A stretch of DNA of 64,000 nucleotides from positions 13,088 to 77,087 of the forward strand of contig JBQTHE010000035.1 of assembly GCA_052390115.1 (NCBI GenBank), written 5' to 3'. Below, a report on this DNA, generated by a model with database tools, continues. The DNA is not shown here. Origin of the DNA: Pseudonocardiales bacterium (GTDB lineage: Bacteria > Actinomycetota > Actinomycetes > Mycobacteriales > Pseudonocardiaceae).

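What the first reader, a model, noticed from the sequence alone, without database searches (positions are those of the whole stretch)
29977..63863. 34-kb island: a valanimycin-type N-N/azoxy toolkit grafted onto dedicated fatty-acid and polyketide machinery
The island holds one member of almost every protein family known from the valanimycin (vlm) pathway.
- MprF-C/DUF2156 aminoacyl-tRNA-dependent transferase (VlmA type), 29977-30993.
- ACAD-fold oxygenase (58250-59386) plus flavin reductase (55297-55887), VlmH/VlmR type.
- Di-iron oxygenase (54320-55300) and small membrane protein (55902-56414), the types reported for VlmB/VlmO.
- DAG-kinase-like kinase (62729-63715) and MmgE/PrpD protein (61227-62732), VlmJ/VlmK type.
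- SARP regulator (VlmI type) and MFS exporter (VlmF type).

Instead of an amino-acid decarboxylase, the amine seems to come from lipid metabolism. That part comprises KASIII/ACP/KS/AccD, an ALDH-type reductase, an omega-aminotransferase and a His-box desaturase.

A second operon adds a KS-AT-DH-KR-ACP PKS, a discrete ACP, an AMP-ligase, an LLM oxidoreductase and two thioesterases.

Fourteen genes from 63715 to 49175 lie on one strand. Six junctions are ATGA or TGATG overlaps (62729-62732, 56918-56921, 55297-55300, 54320-54323, 53199-53202, 52969, 51752-55).

Predicted product: a long-chain, probably unsaturated, alkyl azoxy or hydrazine compound linked to a dehydro-amino acid. Aliphatic azoxy clusters are known (valanimycin, elaiomycin, azodyrecin). 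To my knowledge the added PKS module, the desaturase, the missing SerRS and the adjacent aberrant tRNA are not part of the described versions.
Basis: partly seen in the sequence, partly recalled or inferred. Interest (0 to 1): 0.9.

Follow-up and report, generated by a model that had tools for sequence, protein, structure and literature searches.

The report, continued
Best explanation
**What it is.** Window 29995-63863 is a biosynthetic gene cluster for an aliphatic azoxy natural product. It belongs to the KA57-A / elaiomycin / maniwamycin-like branch of the valanimycin-type pathway.

**Proposed route.** Steps marked 'by homology' rest on enzymes characterised in other clusters. Steps marked 'inferred' rest on gene content only.
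1. KASIII, ACP2 and KS build an acyl chain, helped by the AccD-like carboxyltransferase and the MaoC dehydratase (inferred).
2. The ALDH-family enzyme and the class-III aminotransferase turn the chain into a primary alkylamine (inferred).
3. The VlmH- and VlmR-type pair N-hydroxylates the amine (by homology).
4. The VlmA-type transferase esterifies the hydroxylamine with serine taken from a seryl-tRNA (by homology).
5. The VlmO-type membrane enzyme rearranges the ester to a hydrazine (by homology).
6. The VlmB-type di-iron enzyme oxidises the hydrazine to the azoxy group (by homology).
7. The VlmJ/K-type kinase and eliminase convert the serine CH2OH into an exo-methylene (by homology).
8. The desaturase makes the 1'-alkene (by homology with AzdT).
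9. The AMP-ligase, ACP1, the malonyl-specific KS-AT-DH-KR-ACP module, the thioesterases and the LLM extend the serine-derived carboxyl by one C2 unit and release the product (inferred).
10. The P450, the SnoaL-like protein and the hydrolase tailor the product. The MFS exports it. The SARP, MmyB-like and TetR proteins regulate the cluster.

From my recollection of the published structures, the expected product is a maniwamycin-like alkenyl-azoxy vinyl ketone or alcohol. Chain length cannot be predicted.

**The tRNA-like gene.** At the 5' end of the main operon the cluster carries a tRNA-Ser-like gene. It keeps the serine identity set: G1-C72, G2-C71, G73 and a long variable arm. It has no anticodon loop. 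I propose that SerRS charges it and that it serves the VlmA-type transferase as a seryl donor that cannot take part in decoding.

**Sub-confidences.** Azoxy cluster of the known family, about 0.9. C2 extension by the PKS, about 0.6. tRNA-like RNA as a dedicated seryl carrier, about 0.5.
For: **Core enzymes.**
- VlmB type: about 68% identical over its full length to PDB 6d9f/8wvr.
- VlmO type: D51, H82, H110 and D114 are invariant in 79 homologues, matching the residues reported essential.
- VlmA type: PF09924, E 6.5e-53.
- Flavin reductase, ACAD-fold monooxygenase, kinase and PrpD protein.

**Synteny.**
- The order DAGK-PrpD-ALDH-ACAD-AT-SRPBCC-VlmO-reductase-VlmB-KASIII-ACP-KS is colinear in Streptomyces, Kitasatospora, Micromonospora, Solwaraspora and Pseudonocardiaceae genomes.
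- PKS+ACP1, the desaturase and the TE/LLM/ligase genes re-associate with this operon in different arrangements. This argues for functional linkage.

**Literature.**
- The enzymatic cascade.
- KA57-A listed as azoxyalkene plus type I PKS.
- AzdT as the desaturase.
- VlmJ/K-like and KASIII-like genes co-occurring with VlmA.

**tRNA-like element: structure.**
- It folds as a cloverleaf.
- Across 102 distinct sequences the acceptor stem and T arm vary in only one to four sequences per pair.
- D-stem and anticodon-stem pairs change by compensatory substitution: 98% of cells are paired and 19 of 22 pairs show double changes. The covariation score is 0.271 against 0.083 in shuffles (0 of 500 reach it) and at most 0.046 when partners are slid.
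- The anticodon-equivalent arm is 12-25 nt long with a 3-6 nt loop. None of 93 distinct sequences has a 7-nt loop.

**tRNA-like element: distribution.**
- 54 copies lie in 40 of 80 loci. Family members score at least 73 bits; the next best hit is an ordinary tRNA at 33 bits.
- They lie 48-160 nt upstream of the first operon gene and 140-340 nt from the divergent VlmA gene.
- Arrays of two to four copies occur.
- On metagenome contigs, aberrant copies lie with azoxy-cluster genes 60 to 11. Canonical tRNA-Ser genes with the same 3' 23-mer do so 2 to 16 (Fisher p 8e-9).
- A cluster-encoded SerRS is present in 41 of 80 loci.

**Background.** Serine identity does not depend on the anticodon.
Against: **General.** Nothing here is experimental and the product is unknown.

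**Cluster.**
- I could not fetch the S. rochei azx, elaiomycin, azodyrecin or vlm sequences. Placement in the KA57-A-like branch therefore rests on gene content and literature, not on a direct alignment.
- The ALDH keeps the Cys and Glu typical of oxidising aldehyde dehydrogenases. A reductive role is an assumption.
- The DH motif of the PKS deviates from the consensus.

**tRNA-like element.**
- It is absent from 14 of 51 loci that have VlmA in range. It is therefore dispensable in some clusters.
- It also sits at the 5' ends of operons that do not encode VlmA. That equally fits a role as a processed leader.
- A 95-98 nt subfamily, and one copy beside a SerRS gene, lie outside recognisable azoxy clusters.
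- Its T stem is the same as in canonical tRNA-Ser, so it shows no sign of evading EF-Tu.
- Transcription, CCA addition, serylation and use by the transferase are all untested.
- The covariation counts were made on an alignment fitted to the model.
- The minimum-free-energy loop-size control on canonical tRNAs was imperfect.
Confidence: 0.72

Rival explanations
1. The tRNA-like element is a cis-acting RNA module at the 5' end of cluster operons. It could be a processed leader cut by RNase P and RNase Z, a transcript-stabilising structure, or a promoter-carrying unit. It would not be an aminoacyl carrier.
For: - It always lies upstream of an operon and on the same strand. No terminator-like site separates it from the first gene in the window.
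- In L204 the split operon has one copy in front of each half. One of them ends 3 nt before the called kinase start.
- In many metagenome contigs it precedes SnoaL-MFS-ACP1-PKS rather than the azoxy core.
Against: - A processing signal would not need a near-invariant acceptor-stem sequence across genera, G73, G1-C72, G2-C71 and a maintained class-II variable arm. These are exactly the serine identity set.
- It would not explain the tie to clusters that use seryl-tRNA and often encode their own SerRS.
- Arrays of up to four copies suit a dosage need better than a leader.
- The two roles do not exclude each other.
Confidence: 0.2
2. The tRNA-like sequence is a decayed tRNA-Ser gene or an integration scar (att site) left at the edge of a horizontally acquired island. 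It has no function.
For: - It sits at the edge of a region whose G+C (0.61-0.72) is mostly below that of the adjacent upstream 6 kb (0.72-0.74).
- Standard tRNA finders reject it.
- Genomic islands often integrate at tRNA genes (general knowledge).
Against: - No partial copy or direct repeat lies at the other island end.
- Full-length copies are kept inside clusters in different genomic contexts and genera.
- Base changes are compensatory, and the stems are 98% paired.
- Tandem arrays occur.
- The gap between family members and other tRNAs is sharp, 73 against 33 bits.
Confidence: 0.04
3. The 34 kb holds two or three unrelated clusters that happen to be adjacent: an azoxy/fatty-acid operon, a regulator/P450/MFS block, and a separate PKS operon. 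They would make separate products.
For: - The three blocks are separate transcription units, partly on opposite strands.
- Clusters in actinomycetes often abut.
- No experiment links the PKS to the azoxy product.
Against: - The essential VlmA-type gene lies beyond the PKS operon, 23 kb from the VlmB-type gene.
- In relatives the same PKS, ACP1, ligase, LLM and TE genes sit directly against the azoxy operon in other orders: L005 in one run, L027, L028 and L044 divergent, L082 next to VlmA.
- The published KA57-A cluster includes a type I PKS.
- From memory, elaiomycin-type compounds need a C2 extension of serine.
Confidence: 0.08
4. One reading: a new hybrid in which the valanimycin toolkit has been grafted onto fatty-acid and PKS machinery in a way not covered by the described azoxy clusters.
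For: - This window's gene order is unusual. VlmA is separated from the core, an AccD-like gene sits where relatives have SerRS, and SerRS is absent.
- In the papers I could read, no characterised product is linked to the subtype with both VlmJ/K and the PKS.
Against: - All the named 'additions' are documented for KA57-A or azodyrecin clusters, or in published genome mining.
- They recur in dozens of species. Seven loci have PrpD/kinase and the PKS together within 10 kb: L002, L005, L056, L061, L068, L074 and L080.
Confidence: 0.05

Closest known systems
KA57-A (azx) cluster of Streptomyces rochei 7434AN4, and the 'KA57A-like' group of Maleckis et al.
   Same: - About 36 kb, listed as 'azoxyalkene and type I PKS'.
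- VlmO, VlmB and VlmA homologues are spread over many genes: SRO_1835, SRO_1837 and SRO_1850.
- The product combines a short-chain fatty acid with an amino acid.
- Loci with PKS-ACP1 divergent from ALDH...KS, then the desaturase and VlmA (L027, L044), probably represent this type (inference).
   Different: - The window also has the VlmJ/K-type kinase and eliminase pair, and an AccD-like gene.
- Its gene order is rearranged, and it has no SerRS.
- I could not obtain the S. rochei sequence, so no direct alignment was made.
- Whether azx carries the tRNA-like gene is unknown.
Valanimycin (vlm) cluster of Streptomyces viridifaciens and Kitasatospora setae
   Same: VlmA, VlmH, VlmR, VlmO, VlmB, VlmJ, VlmK, the SARP (VlmI) and the MFS (VlmF) types are all represented.
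   Different: - There is no valine decarboxylase (VlmD) and no SerRS (VlmL).
- The amine comes from a dedicated KASIII/ACP/KS, ALDH and aminotransferase route.
- A PKS module and a desaturase are added.
Azodyrecin (azd/ady) clusters
   Same: - The five core genes.
- An aminotransferase route to a fatty amine.
- A membrane desaturase that makes the 1'-ene.
- No aaRS in the cluster.
   Different: - Azodyrecins use iso-fatty acids from primary metabolism and alanine, and carry a methyl ester made by Ady1.
- The window has its own KASIII/KS/ACP, the VlmJ/K types and a PKS, and no LCM-type methyltransferase.
Non-proteinogenic tRNA-Gly isoacceptors of Staphylococcus aureus, used by FemXAB for the peptidoglycan bridge
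   Same: These are tRNAs set aside for a non-ribosomal aminoacyl-transfer reaction by a GNAT/Fem-fold transferase. They keep translation and the side pathway from competing.
   Different: - The staphylococcal tRNAs keep a normal anticodon arm and are thought to escape through weak EF-Tu binding (A49-U65, A51-U63, loss of GG18/19).
- The element here keeps GG in the D loop and the T stem of canonical tRNA-Ser. It loses the anticodon loop altogether.
- It is encoded inside a secondary-metabolite cluster.
Canonical bacterial tRNA-Ser and tRNA-Sec
   Same: - Class-II long variable arm, G73, G1-C72, G2-C71 and a 7/5 acceptor/T-stem arrangement.
- The 3' 23 nt are identical to those of canonical tRNA-Ser genes found in the same metagenome scan.
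   Different: - There is no 7-nt anticodon loop and no conserved anticodon.
- It falls below Rfam gathering scores for both tRNA and tRNA-Sec, whereas canonical tRNA-Ser genes score 57-62 bits.

Membership tests
Aliphatic azoxy cluster of the valanimycin type (VlmA/H/R/O/B core) | VlmA-type aminoacyl-tRNA-dependent transferase (PF09924, stand-alone, about 330 aa) | tested here: met
   PF09924, E 6.5e-53 over the full profile. The protein is 332 aa. Homologues sit in azoxy loci.
Aliphatic azoxy cluster of the valanimycin type (VlmA/H/R/O/B core) | VlmB-type di-iron oxidase | tested here: met
   E 3.3e-138 and about 68% identity to PDB 6d9f 'Putative VlmB homolog'.
Aliphatic azoxy cluster of the valanimycin type (VlmA/H/R/O/B core) | VlmO-type membrane protein with the four essential residues D51, H82, H110 and D114 | tested here: met
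   All four residues are at exactly these positions and are invariant in 79 homologues.
Aliphatic azoxy cluster of the valanimycin type (VlmA/H/R/O/B core) | Two-component flavin N-hydroxylase (VlmH ACAD fold plus VlmR flavin reductase) | tested here: met
   Both genes keep the conserved positions in the operon. No direct alignment to VlmH or VlmR was possible.
Aliphatic azoxy cluster of the valanimycin type (VlmA/H/R/O/B core) | Production of an N-N (azoxy) metabolite | not testable with these tools
   This needs expression and LC-MS with 15N labelling.
KA57-A-like subgroup | Dedicated KASIII/KS/ACP plus amine-forming enzymes plus a type I PKS in one cluster | tested here: met
   Gene content is shown.
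KA57-A-like subgroup | Protein-by-protein similarity and synteny with S. rochei SRO_1819-1850 | not tested
   The S. rochei sequence could not be reached.
Valanimycin (vlm) cluster proper | Valine decarboxylase VlmD and seryl-tRNA synthetase VlmL | tested here: not met
   No decarboxylase was found among the island genes. No SerRS was found in the window.
Canonical tRNA-Ser | 17-nt anticodon stem-loop with a 7-nt loop and a serine anticodon; detected by standard tRNA models | tested here: not met
   ARAGORN finds nothing. Rfam tRNA is below its gathering score. The fold has an 8-bp helix with a 4-nt loop.
Canonical tRNA-Ser | Serine identity set: long variable arm, G73, G1-C72 and G2-C71 | tested here: met
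   The features are visible in the sequence and fold. Actual serylation was not testable.
tRNA-Sec | Rfam RF01852 at or above its gathering score, an 8/5 or 9/4 acceptor/T arrangement, and a UCA anticodon | tested here: not met
   It scores 30.4 bits against a cut-off of 47. The acceptor stem has 7 bp and the T stem 5 bp, and there is no anticodon loop.

The most novel reading that the evidence does not exclude
Actinomycete azoxy clusters encode their own non-decoding seryl carrier. This is a tRNA-Ser in which the anticodon loop has been replaced by a short, stable hairpin. Housekeeping SerRS or the cluster's own SerRS would charge it. The VlmA-type transferase would use it, and it could not take part in decoding. 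That would be a previously unrecognised class of cluster-encoded RNA cofactor. It would answer the stated open question of how Ser-tRNA-Ser is diverted from translation into this pathway.
Probability: 0.45. Interest if true: 0.85.

Novelty: new variant of a known kind. Interest (0 to 1): 0.68.

Why it matters
**The cluster.** As a gene cluster this is one more member of a widespread family. Published surveys find aliphatic azoxy clusters in about 6% of reference actinobacteria and in 22% of Streptomyces genomes. Its value is as a lead to a probably maniwamycin- or elaiomycin-like compound from a non-Streptomyces source.

**The tRNA-like gene.** This matters more.
- A 2026 review of aminoacyl-tRNA-dependent enzymes never uses the phrase 'tRNA gene' and, in the passages I retrieved, does not mention a cluster-encoded tRNA.
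- A conserved, cluster-embedded tRNA-Ser without an anticodon would make that question directly testable.
- Standard tRNA finders and cluster annotation miss this RNA component.
- It could affect heterologous expression, because constructs that omit the RNA might give low titres.
- It could offer a natural orthogonal aminoacyl carrier for engineering.

Tried and rejected
- **Published clusters.** The key closed-access papers are not held (Shi et al. JACS 2023 and Kunitake et al. ChemBioChem 2015). S. rochei, S. atratus and K. setae proteins were not among the 120 listed hits of either protein search, nor among the 80 kept genome loci. Membership in the KA57-A branch therefore rests on gene content and literature.
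- **Extending past base 64000.** An exact look-up of the kinase protein found no record. Close relatives (L204-L206, VlmO-type protein about 91% identical) turned out to be rearranged, so they do not show what follows here.
- **Integration scar.** blastn and the repeat search found no second copy or direct repeat at the left boundary. I rejected this as the main explanation.
- **Promoter and terminator consensus scan of 63500-64000.** Nothing was found. This is uninformative for actinomycete promoters.
- **Loop size as the only test for 'no anticodon'.** In the minimum-free-energy folds, only 2 of 8 canonical tRNA-Ser controls gave a 7-nt loop. I therefore also rely on three other results: ARAGORN's inconsistent anticodon calls, Rfam scores, and the 12-25 nt spread of arm lengths.
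- **tRNA-Sec.** It was the best Rfam hit but scored below the cut-off and has the wrong architecture. Rejected.
- **NCBIfam.** It has no specific models for the VlmA, VlmB, VlmO, VlmJ or VlmK types; only distant generic hits came back.
- **Organism.** I did not use the last protein search to identify the source organism. The closest named relative of the cluster is a Pseudonocardiaceae MAG (L001, proteins 47-86% identical, core operon 65-86%).

Full report
**1. The observation**

The window has a high G+C content, so I called genes by third-position G+C and scanned them against Pfam.

The plus-strand genes at the left end are:
- a stand-alone LPG_synthase_C/DUF2156 protein at 29995-30993;
- a small ORF;
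- a MaoC dehydratase;
- a SARP regulator.

A minus-strand operon follows. It encodes a 4HBT thioesterase, a type II thioesterase, a luciferase-like oxidoreductase, an AMP-ligase, a 1773-aa KS-AT-DH-KR-ACP PKS and a discrete ACP.

The middle block holds a SnoaL-like protein, an MmyB-like regulator, a TetR regulator, a P450, an MFS transporter and an alpha/beta-hydrolase.

A 14-gene minus-strand operon runs from 63715 down to 49175. In order of transcription it encodes:
- a DAGK-like kinase and an MmgE/PrpD protein;
- an ALDH, an ACAD-fold protein and a class-III aminotransferase;
- an SRPBCC protein and a 170-aa membrane protein;
- a flavin reductase and a di-iron protein;
- KASIII, an ACP and a KS;
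- a carboxyltransferase and a desaturase.

Seven junctions are ATGA or TGATG overlaps. I made small corrections to start codons for VlmA, the desaturase, ACP2 and the ACAD-fold gene. The 30 kb upstream encode housekeeping-type proteins. G+C falls from 0.72-0.74 in the adjacent upstream 6 kb to 0.61-0.72 inside the island. The window contains no SerRS.

**2. Is it an azoxy cluster?**

Yes, with high confidence.
- The di-iron protein aligns over its full length with PDB 6d9f/8wvr, deposited as 'Putative VlmB homolog'. The E-value is 3.3e-138 and identity is about 68% by my reading of the alignment. Both carboxylate-histidine motifs are kept.
- The membrane protein has no Pfam family. In an alignment of 79 homologues, D51, H82, H110 and D114 are invariant. 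A review citing Shi et al. 2023 reports these four residues as essential for iron binding in VlmO.
- That review gives the cascade. VlmH/VlmR N-hydroxylate the amine. VlmA esterifies it with serine from seryl-tRNA. VlmO rearranges the ester to a hydrazine. VlmB oxidises it through azo to azoxy.
- VlmJ/VlmK phosphorylate and dehydrate the serine-derived alcohol.

**3. How common is this architecture?**

A scan of one genome per species with the VlmB-type protein found 118 relatives, of which I kept 80 loci. I ran tblastn with all window proteins against them.
- The order DAGK-PrpD-ALDH-ACAD-AT-SRPBCC-VlmO-reductase-VlmB-KASIII-ACP-KS is colinear in Streptomyces, Kitasatospora, Micromonospora, Solwaraspora and Pseudonocardiaceae genomes, though many loci lack the kinase/PrpD pair. 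Per-protein identities across the operon range from about 40% to 86%.
- The PKS with its ACP occurs in about 25 loci, and the desaturase in about 20. The TE/LLM/ligase genes occur in several.
- These accessory genes lie in different orders relative to the core. That argues for functional linkage rather than chance adjacency.
- Seven loci have both the kinase/PrpD pair and the PKS within 10 kb, as the window does.
- Streptomyces olivoverticillatus (L005) carries the core operon followed by ACP1, the PKS and the AMP-ligase in one compact run.
- The closest named relative is a Pseudonocardiaceae MAG (L001/L082). Its order is P450-MFS-desaturase-SerRS-operon-tRNA-like-VlmA-SDR-MaoC-SARP-TE-TE-LLM-ligase-PKS.
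- The window looks like a rearranged version, close to a circular permutation. It appears broken between the tRNA-like gene and VlmA, with an AccD-like gene where L001 has SerRS.
- A 99%-identical partial contig, L081, has the window's order on the VlmA side.

**4. What the literature already says**

- The KA57-A (azx) cluster of S. rochei is listed as 'Azoxyalkene and type I PKS', 36 kb, SRO_1819-1850. Its VlmO, VlmB and VlmA homologues are SRO_1835, SRO_1837 and SRO_1850.
- Maleckis et al. define a KA57A-like group (short-chain fatty acid plus amino acid) found in 9% of Streptomyces genomes. They show by knock-out that the desaturase AzdT installs the double bond.
- Choirunnisa et al. found 179 VlmA/VlmH pairs in 3146 actinobacteria. 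They noted co-occurrence with VlmJ/K-like, KASIII-like and SerRS genes, and the absence of any aaRS in the ady clusters.
- In the papers I could read, no characterised product is tied to the subtype with both VlmJ/K and the PKS.
- From my recollection of the published structures, that combination fits maniwamycin-type compounds: an alkenyl-azoxy group on a but-1-en-3-one or the matching alcohol.

**5. Likely mechanism**

Steps that rest on characterised homologues:
- N-hydroxylation of the amine;
- seryl transfer from tRNA;
- rearrangement to a hydrazine;
- oxidation to azoxy;
- phosphorylation and elimination to an exo-methylene;
- desaturation to the 1'-ene.

Steps inferred from gene content only:
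- chain building by KASIII, ACP2 and KS, with AccD-like and MaoC support;
- release as an aldehyde by the ALDH-family enzyme, then transamination;
- activation of the azoxy acid by the AMP-ligase and loading on ACP1;
- one malonyl extension by the PKS, whose KS is intact and whose AT carries the malonyl-type HAFH motif;
- release by the thioesterases.

Two weak points remain. The ALDH keeps the Cys and Glu of oxidising enzymes. The DH motif of the PKS is one residue short of the consensus.

**6. The 'aberrant tRNA'**

While reading the last 300 bases I saw a tRNA-like sequence at 63775-63863 on the minus strand, 59 nt upstream of the kinase gene.
- ARAGORN misses it. Rfam gives only tRNA-Sec at 30.4 bits, against a cut-off of 47.
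- It folds into a clean cloverleaf of -45.7 kcal/mol; none of 200 shuffles folds as well. The fold has:
  - a 7-bp acceptor stem, GGAGAGG/CCUCUCC, followed by G73;
  - a 4-bp D stem;
  - a 4-bp variable arm;
  - a standard T arm.
- In place of the anticodon stem-loop it has an 8-bp helix closed by a 4-nt loop, CGUG.

**7. It is a family tied to these clusters**

- blastn, ARAGORN and a covariance model built from 44 copies find 54 copies in 40 of the 80 genome loci. Each scores at least 73 bits. The next best hit is an ordinary tRNA-Gly at 33 bits.
- ARAGORN assigns them incompatible anticodons: Gln, Arg, His, Lys, Leu, Gly, Thr and Cys, or 2- and 4-nt 'anticodons'.
- Of 51 loci with VlmA in range, 37 have the element. 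It typically lies 140-340 nt from the divergent VlmA start and 48-160 nt upstream of the first operon gene, on the operon's strand.
- Tandem arrays of two to four copies occur in L002, L008, L009, L010, L018, L020, L038, L074 and L079.
- On an alignment of 125 matches (102 distinct), 98% of cells pair and 19 of 22 pairs show changes on both sides.
- The covariation score on that alignment is 0.271. Shuffles give 0.083 (0 of 500 reach the observed value) and slid partners give at most 0.046.
- All six pairs of the anticodon-equivalent helix covary, while the acceptor and T stems hardly vary. The alignment was fitted to the model, so these counts lean towards the structure.
- Among 93 distinct family sequences, the anticodon-equivalent hairpin has a 3-6 nt loop in 90, an 8-nt loop in one, and could not be parsed in two. 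The commonest loops are GUCA, UUCG and UCCG (GCAA also occurs), and none has 7 nt.
- The arm is 12-25 nt long, and 17 nt in only 4 of 87. One copy, L008:3903-3980, lacks the arm almost entirely.

**8. Specificity**

- The hits mix canonical tRNA-Ser genes (anticodons CGA, UGA, GGA and GCU) with aberrant copies.
- Canonical tRNA-Ser genes checked (L086, L095, L116) score 57-62 bits on Rfam tRNA. None of the 11 family copies in the same call reaches the 29-bit cut-off.
- Aberrant copies lie on contigs with azoxy-cluster genes in 60 cases. In 11 cases they lie on contigs of at least 4 kb without such genes.
- The corresponding counts for canonical tRNA-Ser are 2 and 16 (Fisher p 8e-9).
- Both 'canonical' exceptions (L094) score as family members.
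- The other exceptions are real:
  - a 95-98 nt subfamily next to FUR-KatG, sigma-factor or deaminase genes (L099, L105, L119, L170);
  - one copy beside a SerRS gene and cysDN (L161).
- A SerRS gene lies within 10 kb of the VlmB-type gene in 41 of 80 loci. Twenty loci have SerRS and the tRNA-like gene, 21 have SerRS only, 20 have the tRNA-like gene only (as the window does), and 19 have neither.

**9. Interpretation of the RNA**

Bacterial serine identity rests on the long variable arm, G73 and the first acceptor pairs. It does not depend on the anticodon. The family keeps exactly these features and discards the anticodon loop. The simplest reading is a seryl carrier that SerRS can charge and the VlmA-type transferase can use, but that cannot decode. 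I put this at about 0.5.

The main rival, at about 0.2, is a 5' operon module such as a processed leader. The two are not exclusive.
- The element always heads an operon.
- In L204 the split operon has one copy before each half.
- In many contigs it precedes SnoaL-MFS-ACP1-PKS rather than the azoxy core.

A dead tRNA or att scar is unlikely. There is no repeat at the other end of the island, and the stems covary.

**10. Is the RNA known?**

I found no description.
- The two open papers on azoxy cluster mining mention tRNA only as a substrate taken from the cellular pool.
- A 2026 review of aminoacyl-tRNA-dependent enzymes in natural-product biosynthesis never uses the phrase 'tRNA gene'.
- Further full-text searches gave nothing relevant.
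- A 2014 review names the diversion of Ser-tRNA-Ser into valanimycin biosynthesis as an open question.
- Closed-access papers were not searchable, so prior description cannot be excluded.
- The closest precedent is the set of non-proteinogenic tRNA-Gly isoacceptors of S. aureus, which keep their anticodon.

**11. Verdict**

The adjacent tRNA-like gene was mentioned only in passing. It is a conserved and, as far as I could find, undescribed element of azoxy clusters. It raises the overall interest and deserves its own follow-up.

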